Below are positions 3,832-17,635 of a stretch of 64,000 nt of DNA, in pieces. A model generated the notes under the pieces. That model was not told the origin of the DNA, did not search any database, and was given only the letters and a program-made list of their open reading frames with translations. The stretch covers positions 96,001 to 160,000 of IMG/VR virus record IMGVR_UViG_3300028804_000001; one strand, given 5' to 3'. How positions within the stretch are numbered: position 1 is the first letter of the stretch; each line of letters begins with the position of its first letter. This DNA is from a virus (Duplodnaviria > Caudoviricetes). The translations under genes were made by a program, and so were the position numbers.

Positions 3832-4650
3832 CTAAAAATTAGCCGATGTAGATTTCATAAAAACATCAATTCTGTTCATAATCTTAGCAGCTACTATAGC
3901 GTAGCCTTCTGGAGTGGGGTGAATCTGCTCACCCCAGTATTTCTTTGGTATCTTTCCTCTAAGATCTACTACTTCCAGACATGGTGTTTCCTTTGCCAGC
4001 TTTAACAATTCCTTATTTGTTATATCTACAAACTCTCTGACTATCTTACTAGCCAGAGGAATAGGAACATTGTTATTATAAAAGAACTCTTTAAGCATAG
4101 CGGTAAACTTAGAATTGGGTTCTTTTTCTGGGTGGAAATAATCATATCCATGAATAATAATCTTGAAGTATTTTAAGTGCCCATACTTCTCATACTGTCT
4201 AACCAGGCTTGTTACATATCTCTTTAACTGTGGAAACATTACCGTTTTTATAAAGTTCGTAAGATGCTTTTTCTTCAGCTTGCATTTGGATCCGGATCCT
4301 GACATAAACGATGAGAAGATGTTCAGCATATCATTCCCACCAAGTGATAAAACTATAACCAGGGGTCTTCTAAGGTTTACTATTTTAAGTGCAAGATCGC
4401 AGAGTCTGTTCTTTATTTCATCTTCCAGTGTGTATCCAGGAATTGCACAGTTAATAAGTGGATACTTTTGCTTGATCCAATCAATCGTATCCCAATGTAA
4501 TGGCCCTCGATCAAACAATCTTCTGTTTAGCCAGGAATCTCCTATGGCAATAATAGAAGGAACTTTCTTGCGCAGTATTAATCTTAATAATAATAGCCGT
4601 AGTTTTTTTCTTAAAACAGCTGCGCTAAAGAGCATGCTCACTAGCTTCAT
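3832..4650 (-). CDS. SGNH/GDSL hydrolase
   Basis: IGDSW block I, SLGGND block III, IHP block V. Confidence 0.8.
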   Translation of the reverse strand: MKLVSMLFSAAVLRKKLRLLLLRLILRKKVPSIIAIGDSWLNRRLFDRGPLHWDTIDWIKQKYPLINCAIPGYTLEDEIKNRLCDLALKIVNLRRPLVIVLSLGGNDMLNIFSSFMSGSGSKCKLKKKHLTNFIKTVMFPQLKRYVTSLVRQYEKYGHLKYFKIIIHGYDYFHPEKEPNSKFTAMLKEFFYNNNVPIPLASKIVREFVDITNKELLKLAKETPCLEVVDLRGKIPKKYWGEQIHPTPEGYAIVAAKIMNRIDVFMKSTSANF

Positions 4651-6147: not shown

Positions 6148-6599
6148 TGAGTTCTGAGAAATGGGATAAGAGATTTATGGAAATGGCTAAGCTGGTAGCT
6201 AGCTGGAGCAAGGATCCATCTACTAAAGCCGGCGCTGTTATTGTAAGACCGGATAAAACTATCGTATCTGTTGGCTATAATGGATTCCCATCTAAGATGC
6301 CAGATGATCCAAAGATGTATGAAAATAGAGAGGAGAAATACTCTCGGATTGTACATGCGGAGGTCAATGCTCTTATCTTCTCGAGAGAACCGGTGGTAGG
6401 ATACACACTATACACATACCCATTCCTTTCATGTGATAGATGTTTTTCCCAGCTAGCCCAGGCAGGAATCTCAACATTTGTATCTCCCATATGTCCTCCA
6501 CATCTTCTAGAAAGATGGGGGAAATCATTTGATATGGTCAGATTACGGGCTAAGGAAATGGGAATTAATATCCAAGAGTATGAGGATATAACGCCATGA
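6147..6599 (+). CDS. dCMP deaminase
   Basis: WDKRFM, SKDPSTKAGA, VGYNG, HAEVNA, CDRC zinc motif; AAGGAG SD before ATG 6147. Confidence 0.93.
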   Translation: MSSEKWDKRFMEMAKLVASWSKDPSTKAGAVIVRPDKTIVSVGYNGFPSKMPDDPKMYENREEKYSRIVHAEVNALIFSREPVVGYTLYTYPFLSCDRCFSQLAQAGISTFVSPICPPHLLERWGKSFDMVRLRAKEMGINIQEYEDITP

Positions 6600-7096
6600 A
6601 CAAACAAACTCCAACTGCTAAAGAATATTCCAGATCTATTAAACAATCATTGATGGAGAATATTCTAGCGTTTAACGACACCGCGTTTATCCATTGTTTG
6701 CCACATAAGGATTTGATCATAGGTAGACGGGGTCTTCAAGGAAAAGAAAAAACAGAAGGTATTGTTCTGGTCCTTGGGCCTACAAGCTATAAGGATATTG
6801 TTATAGAAGAGGATTGCATTAAAACGAGTTTGCAGTTCGGTCAGAAATGGGAAAATATTACGATACCATTGGACTCTTTGGTATCTATATGGGACAAACA
6901 TGGTTTCTTTCAAATAAGATTGGCCGTATTTGAAGATGAGCTTTTAGAAGAAGCAGATACTCCAACTATTACAGATCCAGCAATAGATAATCCAGATTCT
7001 ATGGGAAATTCTCCACCGGAAAAGAAAAAAACAACAGTAAAAAGCGAAGGTAATGTGGTTGCTGTTGATTTTATCAAAAGAAAGAAGATAAAATGA
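6596..7096 (+). CDS. sspB: ClpXP specificity-enhancing factor SspB-like protein
   Basis: GIVLVLG...LQFG..WE.I.IP.D core, acidic linker, C-terminal NVVAVDF+KRKK ClpX-docking-like tail; resembles Leptospira SspB from memory. Confidence 0.65.
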   Translation: MNKQTPTAKEYSRSIKQSLMENILAFNDTAFIHCLPHKDLIIGRRGLQGKEKTEGIVLVLGPTSYKDIVIEEDCIKTSLQFGQKWENITIPLDSLVSIWDKHGFFQIRLAVFEDELLEEADTPTITDPAIDNPDSMGNSPPEKKKTTVKSEGNVVAVDFIKRKKIK

Positions 7097-9962: not shown

Positions 9963-10445
9963 ATGGAAATAGAAGGCTACTTAATAGGCGCATCTATATA
10001 TACCTGCCTGGGTCTAGTAACAGAAACTATCTTTACATCAATTTGGAACTTTTTCTCCGACCATCAGAAGAATAATATATGGTTATTTCATGGGACTGTT
10101 TCTCTTCTTATGATTCCTGTATATTTTACAGGTTACTACTTTCTATCTGCTCCACTATCGCCTTTTCTTTCTAAATCTAACATCTATCTTACCTGCGTAA
10201 TTATAACACTGATGATATATACGGTTGAGTTCTCATGGGCATCTATCTATGACTTATTCAATATCCGACCATGGAACTATGACCATTCTACTACCCTGTT
10301 TGGGGTATATATAAGATTTGATATTCAGGGTAAGATAACAATGCTGTATCTTCCCTTCTGGCTTTTATTCTCTTTTATCACCTGGAAATATCACCTTTTG
10401 TTTGTGAATATATATGAAACATACATAAGGAAATACTGCATGTAA
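9963..10445 (+). CDS. Multi-pass membrane protein (CmpB/putative ABC permease-like)
   Basis: Four TM segments; GLVTETIFT, SLLMIPVY, VEF, PWNY, I.M.YLPFW. Confidence 0.65.
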   Translation: MEIEGYLIGASIYTCLGLVTETIFTSIWNFFSDHQKNNIWLFHGTVSLLMIPVYFTGYYFLSAPLSPFLSKSNIYLTCVIITLMIYTVEFSWASIYDLFNIRPWNYDHSTTLFGVYIRFDIQGKITMLYLPFWLLFSFITWKYHLLFVNIYETYIRKYCM

Positions 10446-10450
10446 TAGAG

Positions 10451-10478
10451 TTGACCGCCTGAGTTTTTTAAATAGAAT
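10451..10478 (+). promoter_or_regulatory. sigma70-type promoter
   Basis: TTGACC-16 nt-TAGAAT, 10 nt before ATG 10489. Confidence 0.55.
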
Positions 10479-10488
10479 GTGATACTTA

Positions 10489-10716
10489 ATGAGCTTTTCT
10501 GATGAACAGGCATGGGAAGGAGATAAATATCGCCTTGTCATTAGAACGTATTCTAAAGATTCCTCTTTCTATAGAGTAATCGTAGAGAGAAGAATGGGTC
10601 CGTTCTGGCTTCCTATGGGCGAGTTAAAAGATATTCTTAAGCTGCTGAAGAATCTTGAGATATCGCCTGACGACTTTTTATCCGAATGGGTTGAAAGAAG
10701 AAAAGGTACGAAGTAA
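10489..10716 (+). CDS. Hypothetical protein
   Basis: ORF directly downstream of promoter. Confidence 0.6.
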   Translation: MSFSDEQAWEGDKYRLVIRTYSKDSSFYRVIVERRMGPFWLPMGELKDILKLLKNLEISPDDFLSEWVERRKGTK

Positions 10717-10738
10717 GTATACTGTCTATTATATAACA

Positions 10739-10915
10739 ATGGATACAAACAAGATTATTGAATTAGGTAAAACCGGCGGCGGACTTGCTGGATGGATTGC
10801 TTTAATTGTAGTTGGTGCACTCTTTCACAACTATGTTATGGCAGGCGCCATCATTGGAACCGTCTTAATGGTCGGTTTACTGGCTTTTGATATATACAAA
10901 AAAAGAAAAGGCTAA
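10739..10915 (+). CDS. Small two-TM membrane protein
   Basis: MDTNKIIELGKTGGGLAGWIALIVVG...YKKRKG; followed by terminator. Confidence 0.6.
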   Translation: MDTNKIIELGKTGGGLAGWIALIVVGALFHNYVMAGAIIGTVLMVGLLAFDIYKKRKG

Positions 10916-10920
10916 TTTAT

Positions 10921-10954
10921 AAAAAGGAGGCTCTTAATGGGGCCTCCTTTTTTT
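10921..10954. terminator. Rho-independent (likely bidirectional) terminator
   Basis: AAAAAGGAGGCTC-loop-GGGCCTCCTTTTTTT. Confidence 0.85.
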
Positions 10955-10989
10955 ATTGACCCGTCCAAATAAAGATACTTTACTGCCTT

Positions 10990-11226
10990 GTGCATCTGAA
11001 ATTAGCAACTCTAAGAAGATTGCTTAGATTCTCCAAAAGCATCTATCCGCGTATTATAATCTTTATCATAGCATTGATTATCGTAGATGCTATCTCTCCT
11101 GTATGCAGGATAGAATGTAATATCAAAATTCACAACCAACAAGAGGATAAGAAAGATGAATATCTTATGGAACAAAATACAAGAGTGGTTAAAAAAGAAT
11201 CTCCTTCTTGTAATCCTTATTGCTAA
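10990..11226 (+). CDS. Hypothetical membrane protein
   Basis: GTG start shortly after TTGACC-17-TTTACT; one TM; overlaps next ORF. Confidence 0.4.
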   Translation: MHLKLATLRRLLRFSKSIYPRIIIFIIALIIVDAISPVCRIECNIKIHNQQEDKKDEYLMEQNTRVVKKESPSCNPYC

Positions 11227-11578
11227 TAGTGCGATTCTCTTATATGCTCTTCTCACTCTTGAGATTAACATCAAGAATGAGAATTTCCAATTCCAGTTCC
11301 AGTCTCAGGATCAAAGACAGTGGCAGCTGCAGCAGACCGTAATAGTTAATGGTCAGATCTTCCAGCAGTTTAAGTTAGAATCAGAAGCATGGACTGCTAA
11401 AGATTGTGGTATTGAACATCACGCTTGGAATAGTTTGTTTGGTGAGAATAATGAATTCCAGCTCTATACCTGTATTGCTAAACACTGTAAGGATAAGCCT
11501 TTTGGATGTTCTAATGTAATAGTGGATAGTAAAAACTATTCATTCTTTATTCTCTATTGGAATGTAAAAGATAAATGA
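11156..11578 (+). CDS. Hypothetical membrane-anchored protein
   Basis: One TM, Gln-rich segment. Confidence 0.6.
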   Translation: MNILWNKIQEWLKKNLLLVILIANSAILLYALLTLEINIKNENFQFQFQSQDQRQWQLQQTVIVNGQIFQQFKLESEAWTAKDCGIEHHAWNSLFGENNEFQLYTCIAKHCKDKPFGCSNVIVDSKNYSFFILYWNVKDK

Positions 11579-11913
11579 AAACCTGCCCACGTTGCAAGAA
11601 ATCTAAACAGATAACAGATTTCTATAAATCCAAGCACACTAAAGATGGCCGGCACGTATACTGTGCCGATTGCTCTAAAGCTATTAAGAAGTTATCTGAT
11701 CATAAGAATATGAAGAAGAAGGGATCTAACTTTAAGATCCCAGATTCTAAAGTATGTTCCAGATGTAAGAAAGTAAAATCATCGGATAACTTTGTTAAGA
11801 ATGAAAGATCTGGAGATGGACTCTGGTGGTACTGCAAGTCGTGCGATGCAGAATATCGTAAGATAGACTATAAGAAAAAAGCAGCTAGAAGAGCTGCTAC
11901 TAAGAAGGTATAA
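11575..11913 (+). CDS. Tandem zinc-ribbon protein (HNH-endonuclease-associated CxxC repeats)
   Basis: Two K.CxxCKK.K...F.K.....DG....CxxC repeats; no HNH domain. Confidence 0.7.
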   Translation: MKTCPRCKKSKQITDFYKSKHTKDGRHVYCADCSKAIKKLSDHKNMKKKGSNFKIPDSKVCSRCKKVKSSDNFVKNERSGDGLWWYCKSCDAEYRKIDYKKKAARRAATKKV

Positions 11914-11914
11914 T

Positions 11915-12295
11915 ATGATGTCCATGGCTGATTATCTTGGAGATACATCATTTAGTTCCAATAATCCAAATATTGGAGTAGCATATGGTTCAACTTCTGG
12001 ACCAATTAAAGAAGCATGTACACTCAATACATCTGGTTCTTACACTGGAGATAATATTCAGAGAATATGGGATCCTAATAAAAACTATGGTATTTGGAAT
12101 CCCCTCGAACAATATCAAGAAGCTGCTCCTACTATTACATTAGATATTCATTTAACAGAAGATGATCTCTTAACACATATGGAATCCGGCAGGCATTTAT
12201 CTCATAAAACTATTCTGTTGCTAATGATAAGACAGAGAAGAATAGAAAAAATATTAGCTAAGGCTTTGAAGGACAGTAACATCCAGGATAAATAA
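11915..12295 (+). CDS. Hypothetical protein
   Basis: Packed ORF. Confidence 0.6.
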   Translation: MMSMADYLGDTSFSSNNPNIGVAYGSTSGPIKEACTLNTSGSYTGDNIQRIWDPNKNYGIWNPLEQYQEAAPTITLDIHLTEDDLLTHMESGRHLSHKTILLLMIRQRRIEKILAKALKDSNIQDK

Positions 12296-12334
12296 TAACT
12301 GGTACGTATCATCTAATATATTCTCACATTAGGT

Positions 12335-12667
12335 ATGATTAATTCGCGTGACGAAGATCCTACTGATATATCTGAAGAATGGAAAGAACTTCTTGGAGCA
12401 GAAAGGGCAGAAGAAGTTGCACAGTTTGTAGATCAGCTGATGGAAAATGCCAGCCTAATGGTAGATGGAACCTTCGGTCTTATACTTAAAAATATTTCAA
12501 TCACCGCAGAGATAGACGGAAAAGATATTCAGATTAATGCTAATCTAGTAGATCCAGGATCCGAGATAGTAGTCCTAGAACCTTCAGAGTTATTTGATGA
12601 TGAAGACACTGACTATGACATCGATGATGATACAGGTGATATTATTTTTCTCGAAAGAGAAGAATAA
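12335..12667 (+). CDS. Acidic hypothetical protein
   Basis: Very Asp/Glu-rich; converges on the tRNA cluster. Confidence 0.6.
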   Translation: MINSRDEDPTDISEEWKELLGAERAEEVAQFVDQLMENASLMVDGTFGLILKNISITAEIDGKDIQINANLVDPGSEIVVLEPSELFDDEDTDYDIDDDTGDIIFLEREE

Positions 12668-12674
12668 TTAATAG

Positions 12675-12756
12675 GGGGCCTGGGTGGATTTGAACCACCG
12701 TTTCTTACAGATCTGGAGTACATCTCTGTAAGCGCATAACCGCTTGCATCAAGCCC
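12675..12756 (-). ncRNA. tRNA-like RNA with elongated anticodon arm
   Basis: Acceptor GGGCUUG/CAGGCCC; D-arm GCA-AGCGGUUA-UGC; 8-bp stem CUUACAGA/UCUGUAAG with 13-nt loop; T-arm GGUGG-UUCAAAU-CCACC. Confidence 0.7.
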
Positions 12757-12759
12757 ATT

Positions 12760-12810
12760 TGGTGCCCCATCTACGACTCGACGTAGACGATAGCTTAAAC
12801 TATATGGGGC
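12760..12810 (-). ncRNA. 51-nt minimal tRNA-like RNA with encoded ACCA 3' end
   Basis: GCCCCAU/AUGGGGC acceptor + ACCA; hairpin AUAG-UUUAAG-CUAU; T-like arm CUACG-UCGAGU-CGUAG. Confidence 0.65.
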
Positions 12811-12816
12811 GTTCTG

Positions 12817-12888
12817 TTAGCCATCAGGGGTTCGAACCCTGGACAAAGCCTTTTAGAGGGGCCTGCTCTACCACTGAGCTAATGGCTA
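12817..12888 (-). tRNA. Amber suppressor tRNA, anticodon CUA
   Basis: UAGCCAU UA GCUC AGUGGUA GAGC A GGCCC CU-CUA-AA AGGCU UUGUC CAGGG UUCGAAC CCCUG AUGGCUA A; canonical cloverleaf with U33 and A37. Confidence 0.9.
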
Positions 12889-12896
12889 ATATTCTT

Positions 12897-13226
12897 TTAA
12901 AGCTTCAACAGCTTGTATTCTTTAAACACTTTCCTCCTTTTCTTATTGGTAATTGGTTCACTTGCTATGGCAGTCATAGCATAGTCAAGATCCGAATCAA
13001 TAAAATAACGGTATCTAATACCATTATCATCTAGATTGCGCATTGCTTTAATCAGTTCTCGCTCGGATCCTATAGAAAGGACCACAGTGTGGAGATTGGT
13101 TACTGATTTGTAGAAGTGGTTTATAGCCTCACAGGCTGCGTGGATGGATTGAACACATTGCTGTTCCTTAGGCAGATCGCTTCGGATCAGAATGTAGATA
13201 TAAGGTTTATCTATCTAGTGTTTCAT
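12897..13226 (-). CDS. Peptidyl-tRNA hydrolase II (PTH2/PTRHD1-like) with in-frame TAG at codon 4
   Basis: MKH*IDKPYIYILIRSDLPKEQQCVQSIHAACEA...TVVLSIGSEREL...FIDSDLDYAMTAIASEP; YxxxRxDL, QxxHA, VVL..E.EL and D...TAIA..P match the PTH2 fold; ORF track calls only the last 62 aa. Confidence 0.8.
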
Positions 13227-13235
13227 GATGTAACT

Positions 13236-13265
13236 ATAGTAGCACAATATCTGGCGTACCGTCAA
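13236..13265 (-). promoter_or_regulatory. sigma70 promoter for the pth2/tRNA cassette
   Basis: TTGACG-18 nt-TACTAT with extended -10 TG; 9 nt before ATG 13226. Confidence 0.7.
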
Positions 13266-13344
13266 CAAAAAAAATTACTATTTATGCACATACTAACCAT
13301 TTCAAAATATTGACAGATACTTGGCAACAAGAGGATATAGCCAT

Positions 13345-13728
13345 ATGGAACAAGAAACAGGAGATACTATAGAGATTAAAGAAGCCCCTTCAAAGATACG
13401 TAAGTTTAAAAACATGAAAGAAGCTGTTCAGTATTATGGAGAACAGGGCCATACCCCTGAACAAATATCCAGGTTCACTGGATTTGATGAAGGGCATGTA
13501 CGTGCAACGATGAAAGAATTATCCCTGATAGAGGGTAATCTAGTAACTCAAGCACAAACATTAAAGCTAGTTGGACTTCTTCTAGATGAAAGTCTAACAT
13601 TTGAAGAGATCGGCCGGAAGTTTGGTATTACCAGACAGGCAGTAGAATCAGTTAAGAGGAAGGGTTTGGAGTTTGGGATTCCTTTCCCAGAAAGATCCAG
13701 TTCAACTGGAAAAAGGAGATTAAGATGA
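13345..13728 (+). CDS. HTH DNA-binding protein (sigma70 region 4-like)
   Basis: TPEQISRFTG and LTFEEIGRKFGITRQAVESV HTH motifs; GAGGA SD before ATG 13345. Confidence 0.7.
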   Translation: MEQETGDTIEIKEAPSKIRKFKNMKEAVQYYGEQGHTPEQISRFTGFDEGHVRATMKELSLIEGNLVTQAQTLKLVGLLLDESLTFEEIGRKFGITRQAVESVKRKGLEFGIPFPERSSSTGKRRLR

Positions 13729-14045
13729 GACTGCAGCAGGAAGAACGGATTAGGAGATCCATTAACGAAGTCTCCCATCTGTTATCCCCCCAAGACTTAA
13801 GATCTGTTCTGAACATTCCAGAAGAGATTAGAAAAGAAATAAACACCGTAAAGAAGATCAAAGGTAGAGATCTTACTGATGCCGAACTGGAGATTCTTGC
13901 GGAGTTTACAACAAGATCTATAGAGAAGCTTGCTGAAAGTGCCACTAAAGCAAAAGAGCAAGAACCAAACCTCTTCCAAAAAGCGGTTCGTTTTTTTGAT
14001 AAGTTCCGTTTATGGGTGGAGGAACAGTTTGGCAAAAATAGCTAA
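13725..14045 (+). CDS. Hypothetical protein
   Basis: ATGA overlap with HTH gene. Confidence 0.6.
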   Translation: MRLQQEERIRRSINEVSHLLSPQDLRSVLNIPEEIRKEINTVKKIKGRDLTDAELEILAEFTTRSIEKLAESATKAKEQEPNLFQKAVRFFDKFRLWVEEQFGKNS

Positions 14046-14655
14046 GAATGAAGCGTGTGTTATCATAGACTTTTGGAACTTCTCTCATTCTATATATAAA
14101 TTCTTAAAACAGGATTTAAAGCCTATAAAGGGCCAAACGAATGAAAATGCGCATAAGTCTAGTAAGATTAATTGGATAGCTGTTCCAAATATAATCGTAC
14201 AAGAATACTCTAAATCTAGTGGTAAGGGTTTGGTTCTAGAGCCTGCCAATGTTCACATACATCTAGCCTATTTCCAAAAGCATAGTAATGGCTTTATGGA
14301 AAAGCTTCTATATGCGATGGATATGGCGGGGTTCTCTATACATAATCACCCAACGGTTCTTAGAGAAACTAAGTGCGATGAATGTGGTTTAGTTAAACAA
14401 GAATACAAAGAGAAAGGTGTAGATGTATCTATTGCAGTCCAGATGCTAACTTCTAAATACCATTATATCTTTCTTCTTTCAGAAGATGCAGATCTGATAC
14501 CCGCGGTAACGGAAGTGCAAAAACATAATAAGAAAGTTATAAACGTATATACCTCTGGTAGAAATACATTTGAGGATATAAGTTTTAACGCAATGGATGC
14601 TCGTAAAATAATGGGCCGGCTGATATCTACTATACCTGGTAAGAATCTGGGATAA
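14029..14655 (+). CDS. NYN (LabA/DUF88, PIN-like) domain nuclease
   Basis: IIDFWNF, EKGVDVSIAVQM, LSEDADLIPAV; CxxC insert; GGAGG SD before TTG 14029. Confidence 0.85.
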   Translation: MAKIAKNEACVIIDFWNFSHSIYKFLKQDLKPIKGQTNENAHKSSKINWIAVPNIIVQEYSKSSGKGLVLEPANVHIHLAYFQKHSNGFMEKLLYAMDMAGFSIHNHPTVLRETKCDECGLVKQEYKEKGVDVSIAVQMLTSKYHYIFLLSEDADLIPAVTEVQKHNKKVINVYTSGRNTFEDISFNAMDARKIMGRLISTIPGKNLG

Positions 14656-14656
14656 T

Positions 14657-15316
14657 TTATCTCTGATTCTGCCACCAGGTCATATCTTTTCCCTTACCTG
14701 CATAGGTTGTGGATAAAGCGTGCCTAACTGTGATATGCTTAACCTCATCTATGTAGGTAAGCTGCCTTACCTTTTTAGATAAAGAAACGCACACCATTTT
14801 ATTATAGCCTAGATCTTCTCCAAAGGTATAAGCTTCTGGCCATCGAATATCCTTAAAGGATTTATGTAGAATATAGGATCCAACCGGGTATGGATTAAAG
14901 CTAGGTGTAATTATGTTAGCTAGTTCTGTAGTAGTCCTTATTGTTCTTCCAACGGCCCACATAAAATTATCAGGAACCATGTGATGCATATCATCTTCGG
15001 ATGGTTGGAAATATCTCTCAGAAGCAAAGAATACTGCAAGGGATCCACTAGTTAAGTTCTCTATCATACGTGAGCAGAAGAAGTTGTGAAGAACAATGTC
15101 ATCATCGTCTATGAAGTAAATATAGTCCCCAGTGGATCTGGCTAGAGCTATGTTTCTCTGAGCACCTGCGGATTTCTTTTCAGATATAACTATAGGGTTC
15201 TTGACTATCTCAATACCAGATGGGACCGCCAGGTTGTTTATGGCAGTCAGGCATCTTTTTAGATAATGTTCTCTTGGGGGTATTGTTGGAATAATGAAAT
15301 CAATCTGAATCTTCAT
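14657..15316 (-). CDS. Glycosyltransferase family 2
   Basis: IIPT, AQRNIAL, YIYFIDDDD, GEDL. Confidence 0.8.
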   Translation of the reverse strand: MKIQIDFIIPTIPPREHYLKRCLTAINNLAVPSGIEIVKNPIVISEKKSAGAQRNIALARSTGDYIYFIDDDDIVLHNFFCSRMIENLTSGSLAVFFASERYFQPSEDDMHHMVPDNFMWAVGRTIRTTTELANIITPSFNPYPVGSYILHKSFKDIRWPEAYTFGEDLGYNKMVCVSLSKKVRQLTYIDEVKHITVRHALSTTYAGKGKDMTWWQNQR

Positions 15317-16221
15317 TTAACTGGCAGTATGTTGTTATTAATGAATTCAGTCAACTCCGTTCTCCACCCACGCCGCATACTGTTAAGCCCAGTCTCAGCA
15401 TAGAATCTTTTAGTATCCATTACTGCATCTACTGGTCTCTTTGCTGGCCTGTTGTCACTAATGTAGCTAATAGGATATACCTTAACTGCTTTATCTATCT
15501 TATACTTAATACGCAGTGTTCTAACTATATGTTCTATGAACTCATGAGAAGATGCTTTTCCATCGCAAGATAAGTGATATGTTCCACACATTCTCTGGAA
15601 TACGCCAGCACCTCTGTTCATTATAGCAGCAATGTGTTTTGCTATATATTCGGTAGAAGTTGGGCAAACGAACCTATCTAAAAACCCGATAATCTTAGTA
15701 TCGGTGGTAATAGAACGTAATGTGGATGATAGTGTAGATGATGGGGATTCATCGTATATATCTCCAATCCTTATTACAACATGATCCTTACTTCTTGATA
15801 TTACTCCAGATTCTCCTCTTAATTTAGTCATCCCATAATAAGAAAGAGGCTTGGGAGTATCTCCTTCACTGTATGCTTTTCCAGAACTACCATCGAAAAC
15901 ATGATTGGTAGAAAAATGAAGAAGCTTAGCTTTAGATGTAGAGCATACATTGGCTAGAGTTGCTGGGAACTCAGAGTTGAGTTTTCTACATAAAGATCGA
16001 TCTTCTTCTTCGGCTTTGTCTAAATTGGTATAAGCTATACAGTTGATAACGATATTAACTTCATTAGTTTTAATGACTGATCTAAGTCTTACATCATCAA
16101 AAACATTCAACGATGCATGTGGAGGTGCAAGTAATATACTAGTATTAATGCCAGATAAAGCTCTGTGTATCTTCTGTCCTAATTTACCAGTTGAGCCAAG
16201 TAGTAATATTCTGGGTTTCAT
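15313..16221 (-). CDS. rmlD: dTDP-4-dehydrorhamnose reductase
   Basis: GSTGKLG, AYTNLDKAE, STNHVFDG, YGMTKLRGE, AKRP. Confidence 0.92.
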   Translation of the reverse strand: MKPRILLLGSTGKLGQKIHRALSGINTSILLAPPHASLNVFDDVRLRSVIKTNEVNIVINCIAYTNLDKAEEEDRSLCRKLNSEFPATLANVCSTSKAKLLHFSTNHVFDGSSGKAYSEGDTPKPLSYYGMTKLRGESGVISRSKDHVVIRIGDIYDESPSSTLSSTLRSITTDTKIIGFLDRFVCPTSTEYIAKHIAAIMNRGAGVFQRMCGTYHLSCDGKASSHEFIEHIVRTLRIKYKIDKAVKVYPISYISDNRPAKRPVDAVMDTKRFYAETGLNSMRRGWRTELTEFINNNILPVK

Positions 16222-16775
16222 AAACTTAAAAATGGACTATTCTTATCTTTCTCAGAGAGTATAAAATCATCTAGAGGAAGATTCTTATTCCATTCCAATC
16301 CTTTAATTGCTGGATCCCTATAGTTTATATACTTAGATCCGCTGGGTGAATATGGAGCATCTACAGTATAGGAAATAATAGTATTAGGCTCTAAAGCTAG
16401 AAAACCATGCGCATGATTTTCTGGTATCCATAATGCCTCATCGTGTTCTGCAGAGAGAACACAAGAAAAGGCATGCATGAAGAACTCGCCTTCATCCAGG
16501 CATATGGCAATATCTAGTATTGCGCCATGCAATACCTTAATTAGTTTATTCTGCCTGGGCTCCTGATAGTGGAATCCTCTGAACACATTTTTATGTGAGA
16601 GGCTTACATTCTCTATAAGAGGCCTTGCCATAAAGGTATTAACGGCCAAGGAGAAGTATTCAATAGGGGATAATCCCTGTAAGAAATATCCCCTATCGTC
16701 TCTGTATTTCTTAAGCTGCACCAGAGAAAATCCAGTGGGAGATATTTGATTAGTTCCTGCAACTTGTATACTCAT
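16218..16775 (-). CDS. rmlC: dTDP-4-dehydrorhamnose 3,5-epimerase
   Basis: DDRGYF, RGFHYQ, AHGFLAL, LSEKD. Confidence 0.92.
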   Translation of the reverse strand: MSIQVAGTNQISPTGFSLVQLKKYRDDRGYFLQGLSPIEYFSLAVNTFMARPLIENVSLSHKNVFRGFHYQEPRQNKLIKVLHGAILDIAICLDEGEFFMHAFSCVLSAEHDEALWIPENHAHGFLALEPNTIISYTVDAPYSPSGSKYINYRDPAIKGLEWNKNLPLDDFILSEKDKNSPFLSL

Positions 16776-17635
16776 AATGATCGTAAGAAATCAGCGTAGT
16801 TATTTTTTACGTTGCTGTACTGCTTAGTAATATACGCTGACATAGTTTTCTTCGAGACATAATCAAGTCTGATTGCAGCCTCCTCAGGAGATCCTACACA
16901 ATTGGAATCTAATTTGCCCATTGTTATATACTTCTCAACAAGAGCTATATTTTCTACCGTTCCGCAATCCTTCCAGAAGCATTCAGTAGGAAGCTTCTCG
17001 ACGTTACATATTTTCAAACCCAAGTATATATTGATAAGATCTACGATCTCGAGTTCATTTCTTTTAGAAGGTTTTAATCCTTTGGCAAAATGAGAAACGG
17101 TAGATGGGAATCTATAAAGGCCAGTTAATGCCTGATTTGATGGTGGGATTTTGGGCTTCTCTACTAGTTTATTCTTAACAGGATCATAAACTCCAAAGGC
17201 TTGTGGCTTAGGAATATACTTAGTAAAAGCAAATGCATTGAACTTATCTCCCATGAACTTCTTTTGATAATATTCAAAGGGGAAGTTATGAAAGAAGTTA
17301 TCACCAAGAAGTAGTGTAACTGGCTGATCCCCTATAAACGGCCGGCCAAGAATAAACGCTTCTGCTATTCCACGGGGGCTATCCTGGACAGAGTAATATA
17401 TGTTTATTCCCCACTGGTGCCCAGATCCAAGCAGATCTGCCATCCTTCCAGTATCCTGGGGAGTAGAAATGATTAAAATTTCTCGGATCCCAAGCTCCAT
17501 TAAGAAACGAAGTGGATAGTAAATCATCGGCTTCCCATTTATGGGAATAAGCTGCTTAGAAATAGACATTGTTGCTGGGTAAAGTCTGGTCCCAGAACCA
17601 CCAGCTAGTATTATACCACGGTCGGAGATTTCCAC
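16772..17635 (-). CDS. rmlA: Glucose-1-phosphate thymidylyltransferase
   Basis: GIILAGGSGTRLYP, SKQLIP, KPMIYYPL, LGDN, EKP, SKRNELEI. Confidence 0.95.
   Translation of the reverse strand: MEISDRGIILAGGSGTRLYPATMSISKQLIPINGKPMIYYPLRFLMELGIREILIISTPQDTGRMADLLGSGHQWGINIYYSVQDSPRGIAEAFILGRPFIGDQPVTLLLGDNFFHNFPFEYYQKKFMGDKFNAFAFTKYIPKPQAFGVYDPVKNKLVEKPKIPPSNQALTGLYRFPSTVSHFAKGLKPSKRNELEIVDLINIYLGLKICNVEKLPTECFWKDCGTVENIALVEKYITMGKLDSNCVGSPEEAAIRLDYVSKKTMSAYITKQYSNVKNNYADFLRSL

What the first reader, a model, noticed from the sequence alone, without database searches (positions are those of the whole stretch)
12817..12888. Suppressor tRNA(CUA) in a genome that is not recoded; unusual identity elements
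Long structural ORFs (up to 2717 aa) are intact in code 11 and many genes end in TAG (e.g. 1461, 3674, 7455, 7915, 9088, 9572, 29974, 31912, 56717), so this is not a TAG-to-Gln recoded phage here. The tRNA keeps D-loop GG and T-loop UUC, so it is not tRNA-Pyl. U1-A72 is Gln-like, but A2-U71 and discriminator A73 are not typical Gln determinants. It has a C31-A39 mismatch and no full encoded CCA. The charged amino acid cannot be read from sequence, and a weak, tuned suppressor is plausible.
Basis: partly seen in the sequence, partly recalled or inferred. Interest (0 to 1): 0.75.

Follow-up and report, generated by a model that had tools for sequence, protein, structure and literature searches.

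The report
Phage stop-reading tRNA gating neighbour gene
A large uncultured phage that uses the normal genetic code carries a real UAG-reading tRNA, and its likely job is to let ribosomes pass a UAG kept as the fourth codon of the tRNA-hydrolase-like gene just upstream, a pairing also present in lab-grown giant phages whose stop-reading tRNAs had no known target.

Summary
A canonical 72-nt tRNA with anticodon CUA lies on the minus strand at 12888..12817 (Rfam 59 bits). The 225.6-kb record is not TAG-recoded.

Eight bases upstream, in the same transcription unit, a PTH2-fold gene reads ATG AAA CAC TAG. Its conserved domain follows with no usable start codon.

The same early UAG occurs in every sufficiently covered relative I read:
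- metagenomic relatives at 44-67% identity;
- cultured phages GAP32, CBB, BF, fHe-Yen9-04, ME3, Arash, XacN1 and RsoM2USA.

Each gated genome I could search also encodes a tRNA(CUA). Homologues with plain starts (K64-1, Hallingskeid) come with no such tRNA. Atu_ph07, which has a UCA suppressor, has a UGA gate instead.

Best reading (about 0.7): this is a dedicated suppressor and target pair that works as a translational AND gate, not a code change. The inserted amino acid falls in a non-conserved leader, which fits the lack of shared identity elements among 17 such tRNAs. The C31·A39 mismatch recurs in several lineages, so it is not decay.

Nothing here is experimental.

This scan has reported the same cassette before, on this genome and on many others. 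I found no paper describing it.

The parts
13236..13265 (-). Sigma-70-like promoter: TTGACG (13265-13260), 18-nt spacer ending in TGc, then TACTAT (13241-13236). It lies 9 nt before the ATG, so the mRNA is leaderless or nearly so.
   Evidence: Consensus scan and direct reading. The same TTGAC-N17-xAxxxT layout lies 6-7 nt before the ATG in relatives L013, L014 and L015. Its function is inferred.
12897..13226 (-). PTH2-like gene: ATG 13226-13224, AAA, CAC, in-frame TAG 13217-13215, then a 105-codon PTH2 domain ending in TAA 12899-12897. There is no ATG, GTG or TTG between the TAG and residue 45 of the domain.
   Evidence: frame. Pfam PF01981 scores 28.3 bits against a cut-off of 23, over profile positions 4-115, and 27.2 bits in the own-genome search. 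The AF2 model has pLDDT 94. The top PDB fold matches are all Pth2 enzymes, TM 0.67-0.79.
13215..13217 (-). The amber gate: UAG as codon 4, followed by A (UAG-A context).
   Evidence: Direct reading. An early UAG at the same place is seen in relatives.
12817..12888 (-). tRNA with anticodon CUA (amber suppressor). It starts 8 nt after the PTH2-like stop codon. The CCA is not encoded.
12760..12810 (-). 51-nt tRNA-like mini-structure: a 5-bp stem enclosing two hairpins, then ACCA. It is in the same transcription unit and was not studied further here.
   Evidence: Fold of 12660-12820, z = -3.96. Identical in the strain contigs.
12675..12756 (-). tRNA-shaped RNA with a normal acceptor stem and T arm, a 3-bp D stem and an oversized anticodon arm. 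Standard ARAGORN misses it. It was not studied further here.
   Evidence: Fold. Weak Rfam tRNA match at 12675-12714. ARAGORN at a lowered threshold calls it. Strain contigs differ by a 3-nt indel in the long arm.

Best explanation
The gene encodes a working phage amber-suppressor tRNA. Its conserved job is to read the UAG kept as codon 4 of the PTH2-like gene directly upstream.

Proposed mechanism:
- One sigma-70-type promoter drives a (near-)leaderless transcript that carries the gated gene, the suppressor tRNA and two tRNA-like RNAs.
- RNase P and 3' processing release the tRNA.
- A host CCA-adding enzyme and a host synthetase complete and charge it.
- Only then can ribosomes pass fMet-Lys-His-UAG and make the hydrolase-like protein. 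Otherwise RF1 releases a tripeptide.

The pair therefore acts as a translational AND gate, or coherent feed-forward loop, giving no leak and a delayed onset. It does not change the genetic code.

Because the UAG lies in a short non-conserved leader, any amino acid will do. That explains why these tRNAs share no acceptor-stem identity set.

Shown: the tRNA, the gate, the absence of genome-wide recoding, and the co-occurrence across phages.
Inferred: expression, charging, actual read-through, and what the gate is for.
For: (1) The tRNA is canonical: 59.1 bits, and kept in 9 strain contigs.

(2) The PTH2 domain is complete (Pfam; fold). It has no start codon after the TAG until domain residue 45.

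(3) The early UAG is conserved while the sequence around it changes:
- window: MKH*IDKPYIY
- L013: MKL*IAPYIY
- L014: MKKM*IPYIY
- L015: MKTTL*IPYIY
- L017: MSL*VSYLY
- L018: 12 codons, then *
- fHe-Yen9-04: MSH*; BF: MTH*; CBB and GAP32: MAQ*; Kaldavass and XbC2: MAH*
- ME3: MT*; Arash: ML*; RsoM2USA: ML*
- LR756511: MTH*; LR756500: MK*; LR756501: MS*
- XacN1: MK*; Xoo-sp13: MKK*; CM1: MK*
. All of these stops are TAG.

(4) Every gated genome or contig long enough to test has a tRNA(CUA), upstream or downstream and from 8 nt to about 12 kb away, or in the terminal repeats in XacN1. Homologues with ordinary starts (K64-1, Hallingskeid) have no CUA tRNA by the same pattern search.

(5) Stop and anticodon match in the one opal case tested. 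Atu_ph07 has a UCA suppressor (PMC6102473) and a Pth2 gene reading MIGEHF-TGA, followed by 23 codons without a start.

(6) The base after the gate is A in 15 and G in 3 of the first 18 gates tallied. From general knowledge of E. coli context effects, a purine there favours suppression over RF1.

(7) Crude scans of the whole record find no other convincing amber-interrupted gene and no excess over TGA or TAA controls.
Against: - There are no expression, charging or proteomic data.
- TAG terminates 38 credible genes of this phage, including the large terminase, whose read-through would fuse it to the next 932-codon frame. An efficient suppressor should therefore be costly. TAG-ending genes show no closer back-up stops than the others (p = 0.35).
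- The tRNA lacks an encoded CCA, and no CCA-adding enzyme was found in the held DNA.
- In XacN1 and Xoo-sp13 an in-frame ATG follows the TAG by 4 codons. In mycobacteriophage IkeLoa a well-spaced GTG follows ATG-TAG directly. The gate is therefore not obligatory everywhere.
- My codon-score scan did not recover the Pth2 gate itself, so it is not sensitive to short genes.
- CheckV estimates the record at 83% complete.
Confidence: 0.7

Rival explanations
1. It is a general suppressor. Its main job would be genome-wide read-through of host and/or phage UAG terminators, for host takeover, C-terminally extended isoforms or counter-defence. The gated PTH2-like gene would be only a companion that cleans up the consequences.
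For: TAG ends about 20% of this phage's genes. It is far rarer in the late or structural half (6 of 71) than in the 36-110 kb region (25 of 91; Fisher p = 0.002). That would fit selection against TAG where the suppressor is active. Authors of jumbo-phage papers assumed many targets (PMC8504454; PMC6102473).
Against: The TAA preference of late genes is equally explained by high expression and low GC. There is no enrichment of back-up stops after TAG. XacN1's authors read through all 18 annotated amber stops and found no added homology (PMC5852040). The only feature that tracks the tRNA across phages is the gate.
Confidence: 0.12
2. It is a stage on the way to, or back from, TAG-to-Gln (code 15) recoding. 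On this view the suppressor was acquired first and in-frame TAGs have only begun to accumulate, or the recoded genes lie in the missing 17% of the genome.
For: Borges et al. (bioRxiv 10.1101/2021.08.26.457843) propose exactly this path and saw suppressors in standard-code relatives. LR756501 has a second in-frame TAG inside its PTH2-like domain. The record is incomplete.
Against: TAG is not depleted (45 of 211 stops in the cruder gene set; 38 credible). Density gains only 0.8% with TAG read through, against the 5% criterion for contigs above 100 kb used in PMC10879173. The single-gate state is shared by complete cultured genomes of very different phages, so it looks stable, not transitional. 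The structural genes in the held 225 kb are intact.
Confidence: 0.06
3. The tRNA does not decode the gate. ATG-AAA-CAC-TAG would be a three-codon upstream mini-ORF, and the PTH2-like frame would be started by re-initiation or by a non-canonical start such as ATA or ATT right after the stop. The tRNA would serve another purpose or be inert.
For: The codon after the gate is ATA or ATT in many lineages. In IkeLoa a GTG with good Shine-Dalgarno spacing follows ATG-TAG. Mini-ORFs that stress peptidyl-tRNA recycling are known from phage lambda bar minigenes (general knowledge).
Against: This does not explain why the stop is always TAG where the phage has a CUA tRNA and TGA where it has UCA. It also does not explain why plain-start homologues lack the tRNA. 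Several gates are followed by AAT, GTT, GTC, GTA or ACC, which are not starts.
Confidence: 0.08

Closest known systems
Stop-codon-recoded phages with phage-encoded suppressor tRNAs (TAG read as Gln, 'code 15': crAss-like, Lak and others; Borges et al., bioRxiv 10.1101/2021.08.26.457843; Peters et al., PMC9523058)
   Same: A phage-encoded tRNA(CUA) in a phage whose host presumably uses the standard code. The suppressor is proposed to control when certain phage proteins can be made.
   Different: Here there is one gated gene, not dozens. The gate lies in a non-conserved leader at codon 4, not at conserved Gln positions. TAG remains a common terminator. Coding density does not rise under code 15.
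Orphan suppressor tRNAs reported in cultured standard-code jumbo phages (XacN1, PMC5852040; RsoM2USA, PMC8504454; Atu_ph07, PMC6102473; GAP32 'Sup-tRNA' annotation)
   Same: The same kind of tRNA in the same kind of phage. Those genomes contain the same PTH2-like homologue, with an early stop that matches the suppressor.
   Different: Those papers name no target, and XacN1's authors searched and found none. The gated gene is unannotated or annotated from an internal start in BF, fHe-Yen9-04, CBB, GAP32, ME3 and RsoM2USA.
prfB (RF2) autoregulation through an early in-frame UGA (general knowledge)
   Same: A translation-factor-like gene whose own synthesis depends on how an early in-frame stop codon is decoded.
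   Different: prfB uses a +1 frameshift and senses RF2 itself. Here a separate tRNA is needed, and any feedback, such as the hydrolase acting on the suppressor's acyl or peptidyl form, is only a hypothesis.
Synthetic suppressor-tRNA feed-forward 'leak dampener' circuits (PMC7969014, title and abstract seen)
   Same: Amber codon(s) in the target gene plus a suppressor tRNA driven by the same input give AND-gate behaviour and remove leaky expression.
   Different: That circuit is engineered. This one is natural, and in this window the gene and the tRNA sit on one transcript.
tRNA-Pyl (ARAGORN's label)
   Same: Only the CUA anticodon.
   Different: None of the structural hallmarks of tRNA-Pyl is present (see the membership test).

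Membership tests
Canonical elongator tRNA (Rfam RF00005) | Cloverleaf with a 7-bp acceptor stem, U8, a 4-bp D stem with G18G19, a 7-nt anticodon loop with U33, and a T-loop UUCRA | tested here: met
   59.1 bits against a gathering score of 29, full length. Features read. The one irregularity is C31 opposite A39.
tRNA-Pyl | Compact core: one base between the acceptor and D stems, a small D-loop without GG, a 6-bp anticodon stem, a 3-nt variable loop and no T-psi-C consensus (general knowledge) | tested here: not met
   Two bases (U8, A9), D-loop AGUGGUA, 5 anticodon-stem positions, variable loop UUGUC, T-loop UUCGAAC.
Code-15 (TAG to Gln) recoded phage | Coding density at least 5% higher with TAG as sense for contigs above 100 kb (criterion quoted in PMC10879173) | tested here: not met
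   0.917 against 0.925.
Code-15 (TAG to Gln) recoded phage | Many in-frame TAGs in structural and lysis genes; TAG not used as a terminator | tested here: not met
   Structural ORFs are intact. 38-45 genes end in TAG. Scans found only the PTH2-like gate.
tRNA-Gln identity set (E. coli GlnRS rules, general knowledge) | U1-A72, G2-C71, G3-C70, G10, G73, U35, G36 | tested here: inconclusive
   Present: U1-A72, G3-C70, G10 and U35. Absent: G2-C71 (it is A2-U71), G73 (it is A73) and G36 (it is A36). The host and its synthetases are unknown.
PTH2 peptidyl-tRNA hydrolase family (the gated target) | Pfam PF01981 above its gathering score, and a Pth2 fold | tested here: met
   28.3 bits against 23. The model has pLDDT 94. 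The best PDB matches are MJ0051, PH1539, AF2095, Bit1 and S. solfataricus Pth2.
PTH2 peptidyl-tRNA hydrolase family (the gated target) | Catalytic residues of characterised Pth2 enzymes: the Lys of the G-K motif and the Asp of D-A-G (recalled, not checked against a paper) | tested here: inconclusive
   The family consensus is DLxxxQQxVQxxHA and EPDL....TA.ATEP. An Asp is kept (D75, nearly invariant), but Gln stands where canonical enzymes have Gly-Lys (alignment). The substrate may therefore differ.
Suppressor-gated Pth2-like cassette (a class known so far only from this scan's own notes) | An early in-frame stop before the domain with no alternative start; a matching suppressor tRNA in the same genome; both conserved in diverged relatives | tested here: met

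The most novel reading that the evidence does not exclude
The suppressor tRNA and the gated hydrolase would form a self-measuring circuit, widespread in large phages. The hydrolase-like enzyme would act on acylated or peptidyl forms of tRNAs, including the suppressor itself and perhaps the two tRNA mimics behind it. The early UAG would then report the enzyme's own activity back to its synthesis, much as prfB senses RF2. This would make the orphan suppressor tRNAs of standard-code jumbo phages sensors, not decoders.
Probability: 0.2. Interest if true: 0.85.

Novelty: new variant of a known kind. Interest (0 to 1): 0.62.

Why it matters
Suppressor tRNAs in phages that keep the standard code have been reported repeatedly without a target (XacN1, RsoM2USA, Atu_ph07, GAP32). 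They are usually read as first steps towards recoding.

A conserved single-codon gate in a tRNA-hydrolase-like gene gives these tRNAs a concrete, testable job. It also provides a natural example of a translational AND gate of the kind built in synthetic biology.

It flags a systematic annotation error as well: the gated gene is missing or truncated in several GenBank phage records.

Because the cassette is present in lab-grown phages of Enterobacterales, Acinetobacter, Xanthomonas and Ralstonia, the idea can be tested directly.

Tried and rejected
- Relative searches that found nothing: blastn of 10000-16000 against the phage collection; back-translated pattern scans of viral contigs and metagenome contigs with the PTH2-like protein or its close-clade alignment. 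The 30-sequence alignment was too diverse for that tool.
- Amino-acid identity by similarity to E. coli tRNA genes: the window tRNA and GAP32's give only generic Ile, Asn and Lys matches of about 76%, and Arash's gives none. I rejected this as a way to assign identity.
- The in-frame TAG joining the terminase to the next ORF (1512 codons) was rejected as recoding. The downstream frame has its own ATG three codons after the stop.
- Other candidate amber-gated frames from three scans look like antisense or low-complexity translations.
- The 51-nt element behind the tRNA was considered as an HDV-like theta ribozyme (PMC10879173) or a hammerhead. Two hairpins lie between the strands of the outer stem, which does not fit the HDV topology. 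No hammerhead core is present, and there is no Rfam hit at E <= 10.
- The second 'ATG AAA TAG' after the LR756500 gene opens only a 15-codon frame.
- No HD-like partner gene, of the kind fused or adjacent in cultured phages, is found in this genome.

Full report
**1. The observation**

ARAGORN reports a single tRNA in the window, on the minus strand at 12888..12817, with anticodon CTA. Rfam's tRNA model scores it 59.1 bits against a gathering score of 29, full length.

Read 5' to 3', the tRNA has:
- acceptor stem UAGCCAU / AUGGCUA, so U1-A72, A2-U71 and G3-C70;
- U8 and A9, then D arm GCUC-AGUGGUA-GAGC;
- anticodon stem GGCCC / AGGCU, with C31 opposite A39, and loop CUCUAAA;
- variable loop UUGUC and T arm CAGGG-UUCGAAC-CCCUG;
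- discriminator A73, followed by CAG, so the CCA is not encoded.

ARAGORN's 'tRNA-Pyl' label rests on the anticodon alone, and none of the tRNA-Pyl hallmarks is present. Nine near-identical contigs from other samples carry the same gene. The only change is U8C, in one low-coverage contig.

**2. Is the genome recoded?**

The window is bases 96001-160000 of a 225,628-bp single-contig IMG/VR record. The record has 38.8% GC, is classed as linear, and CheckV estimates it at 83% complete.

- A greedy ORF tiling covers 91.7% in code 11, 92.5% with TAG read through, 91.4% with TGA and 87.7% with TAA.
- Stops are TAA 103, TGA 63 and TAG 45 in that set.
- The only long frame joined by a single TAG is the large terminase plus the following ORF. 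That ORF has its own ATG three codons after the stop.
- Three further scans for frames that need a TAG to be read gave no excess over TGA or TAA controls. The candidates translate to antisense-like sequence. These scans are crude: the codon-score version did not recover the gate described in section 3.
- The held DNA has no RF-1 domain, no CCA-adding enzyme (PF01743), and no class Ic or IIb synthetase.

So 'not recoded' stands for the DNA in hand.

**3.

A note from this scan (e1-5674410) pointed me to the frame just upstream, and I then checked it myself.

On the minus strand, a sigma-70-like promoter (TTGACG, 18 nt, TGcTACTAT) ends 9 nt before the sequence ATG AAA CAC TAG ATA GAT AAA CCT TAT ATC TAC. 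From the TAG onward the frame stays open for 105 codons, to a TAA at 12899-12897, only 8 nt before the tRNA. There is no ATG, GTG or TTG until codon 45 of that stretch.

The 105 residues are a complete PTH2 domain:
- Pfam PF01981 scores 28.3 bits against a cut-off of 23, over profile positions 4-115.
- The AlphaFold model has pLDDT 94.
- The best solved matches are all archaeal or eukaryotic Pth2 enzymes, with TM 0.67-0.79.

The family keeps an Asp in an EPDL motif but has Gln-Gln where canonical enzymes have Gly-Lys. Its substrate may therefore not be the classical one.

**4. Is the gate real? Comparative evidence**

An exhaustive HMMER search finds 825 family members. Most have ordinary N-termini, but a subset of gene calls starts inside the domain. 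I fetched the DNA behind several of these.

| Source | Leader and gate | tRNA(CUA) |
|---|---|---|
| L013 (about 62% identity) | MKL-TAG-IAPYIY | directly behind the gene |
| L014 | MKKM-TAG | contig too short to tell |
| L015 / L016 | MKTTL-TAG | 290 nt downstream in L015 |
| L017 (GC-rich) | MSL-TAG | upstream |
| L018 | 12 codons, then TAG | contig too short to tell |

L013-L015 also keep the TTGAC-N17-xAxxxT promoter 6-7 nt before the ATG. This suggests a leaderless mRNA in this clade.

A tblastn search of GenBank phages found the domain in 34 records, and a second query found 46. I read the DNA.

| Phage | Leader and gate |
|---|---|
| Yersinia fHe-Yen9-04 | MSH-TAG |
| Serratia BF | MTH-TAG |
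| Pectobacterium CBB, Cronobacter GAP32 | MAQ-TAG |
| Erwinia Kaldavass, Xanthomonas XbC2 | MAH-TAG |
| Acinetobacter ME3 | MT-TAG |
| Salmonella Arash | ML-TAG |
| Ralstonia RsoM2USA | ML-TAG |
| Uncultured LR756511 / LR756500 / LR756501 | MTH- / MK- / MS-TAG |
| XacN1 / Xoo-sp13 / CM1 (domain fused behind an HD-like domain) | MK- / MKK- / MK-TAG at the start of the fusion |

In several of these records the gene is unannotated or called from an internal codon.

Each of these genomes has a tRNA(CUA). Two homologues with ordinary starts, Klebsiella K64-1 and the Erwinia Hallingskeid fusion, sit in genomes where the same pattern search finds only tRNA-Arg(UCU).

Agrobacterium phage Atu_ph07 has a suppressor with anticodon UCA (PMC6102473). 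It has a Pth2 gene reading MIGEHF-TGA, followed by 23 start-less codons before the domain. Stop and anticodon change together in the one opal case I tested.

Mycobacteriophage IkeLoa is ambiguous. It reads ATG-TAG-GTG, the GTG is well spaced from a Shine-Dalgarno sequence, and a tRNA(CUA) lies 250 nt downstream.

The base after the gate is A in 15 and G in 3 of the first 18 gates tallied. From general knowledge, that context favours suppressor tRNAs over RF1 in E. coli.

**5. The tRNA's 'unusual' features in context**

I compared seventeen such suppressors.
- Their acceptor stems are unrelated. The first pair is U1-A72, G1-C72 or C1-G72.
- The discriminator is A in 14 and G in 3.
- All but one have the loop YUCUAAA. 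ME3 has C33.
- C31·A39 occurs in the window, XacN1 (two copies), Xoo-sp13, CM1 and Arash, and C·C occurs in L015.
- A mismatched 27-43 pair occurs in L013, XacN1, CM1 and LR756511.

Ten of the 17 therefore have an effectively 4-bp anticodon stem. A 2026 paper recalls older E. coli work in which an unpaired 27-43 pair raised read-through by CUA tRNAs (PMC13092985). Whether a 31-39 mismatch does the same is not known to me. Its recurrence argues against decay.

With the gate in a non-conserved leader, nothing constrains which amino acid is inserted. That fits the absence of a shared identity set. From general knowledge of E. coli amber suppressors, a generic CUA tRNA with A73 would most likely take Lys or Gln. 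That is an inference, and the host here is unknown.

**6. How it most likely works**

One transcript carries the gated gene, the suppressor and two tRNA-shaped RNAs (fold z = -3.96). The terminator scan found no terminator-like site on the minus strand between the promoter and the end of these RNAs.

RNase P cutting at the tRNA's 5' end would leave the message ending 8 nt after its stop codon. Protein appears only after mature, CCA-tailed, charged suppressor has accumulated. The output therefore depends on the promoter twice, which makes a coherent feed-forward AND gate. The same design was built on purpose in PMC7969014.

A failure to suppress costs only a tripeptide. Why this enzyme needs such a gate is open. 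Three options are:
- a timer or leak filter for a protein that is harmful when mistimed;
- feedback, if the enzyme deacylates the suppressor, by analogy with prfB;
- a companion to wider read-through.

**7. The cost problem**

TAG ends 38 genes here. The terminase's TAG is followed in frame by 932 codons. Back-up stops are no closer after TAG than after other stops (p = 0.35).

TAG is rarer in the late half of the genome (6 of 71) than in the 36-110 kb region (25 of 91; p = 0.002). TGA also falls and TAA rises, as expected for highly expressed AT-rich genes.

It is untested.

**8. What is known**

Phage suppressor tRNAs and code-15 recoding are well described. Suppressors in standard-code jumbo phages are reported, but without targets. 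Eight full-text searches found no paper that describes a suppressor-gated Pth2 gene.

Within this scan the cassette has been reported before, both on this genome (e1-5674406, e1-5674410) and on many others. This window is therefore another member of a class that appears to be unpublished.

**Verdict**

The finding is best filed as a new variant of a known kind. The phage suppressor tRNA is known; its use as a dedicated gate for one neighbouring tRNA-hydrolase-like gene is new.

Noticed in passing
window 12675-12810 (minus strand): Two tRNA-shaped RNAs follow the suppressor. One is a 51-nt stem with two hairpins ending in ACCA. The other is a tRNA-like with a 3-bp D stem and an oversized anticodon arm. 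Strain contigs differ by a CTC indel in the long arm and by CCCCCT versus CCCACCC at the 3' end.
   Followed up: partly
G000:C1:2393-6931 (minus strand; outside the window, locus L001): The large terminase (579 aa) ends in TAG. The next 932-codon ORF is in the same frame, with its ATG three codons later. Amber read-through would give a 1512-residue fusion.
   Followed up: partly
whole record G000: Stop-codon use differs by region. At 36-110 kb it is TAA 36, TGA 30 and TAG 25. At 110-225 kb it is TAA 48, TGA 17 and TAG 6 (Fisher p = 0.002 for TAG).
   Followed up: partly
L020 (XacN1) 1955-2815; L035 (CBB) 6564-6887; L038 (ME3) 6306-6869; L043 (Arash) 6311-6847; L053 (RsoM2USA) 3945-4484: An HD-motif domain (HDIGKP...HFPNHA...HDM.FH) is fused in front of the PTH2-like domain in XacN1, Xoo-sp13 and CM1. 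In the other cultured phages it is encoded just downstream of that gene. This suggests a functional pair. No homologue is found in the held part of this window's genome.
   Followed up: partly
L043 (Salmonella phage Arash) 7310-7384: The GenBank record labels this tRNA as tRNA-Phe, but its anticodon loop is CUCUAAA, so the anticodon is CUA.
   Followed up: yes
L056 (LR756501, 735-kb uncultured phage) 1489 and 1591: Besides the codon-3 gate, a second in-frame TAG lies inside the PTH2-like domain. This genome may use TAG as a sense codon more widely.
   Followed up: no
L057 (Mycobacterium phage IkeLoa, Bixzunavirus) 1465-2169: The annotated peptidyl-tRNA hydrolase starts at a GTG directly after ATG-TAG, and a tRNA(CUA) lies 250 nt downstream. 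The linkage therefore reaches actinobacteriophages, but the gate there is ambiguous.
   Followed up: partly
L065 (Agrobacterium phage Atu_ph07) Pth2 match at record 198567-198914 (minus strand): A canonical-type Pth2 gene (73.7 bits) is preceded by MIGEHF-TGA and 23 start-less codons, in a phage whose published suppressor has anticodon UCA.
   Followed up: partly
window 14657-17635 (minus strand) and 13930-14655 (plus strand): Next to the cassette lie a dTDP-sugar pathway block and other genes: an RmlD-like reductase (3e-63), a sugar isomerase and nucleotidyltransferase seen in strain contigs, a family-2 glycosyltransferase, a NYN-domain protein and a small protein with sigma-70 region 4.
   Followed up: no
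G000:C1:76045-76514 (outside the window): ARAGORN in intron mode calls a tRNA-Ser(UGA) with a 384-nt intron. It lies next to the tRNA-Leu, tRNA-Arg and tRNA-Met cluster at 75.1-77.5 kb.
   Followed up: no
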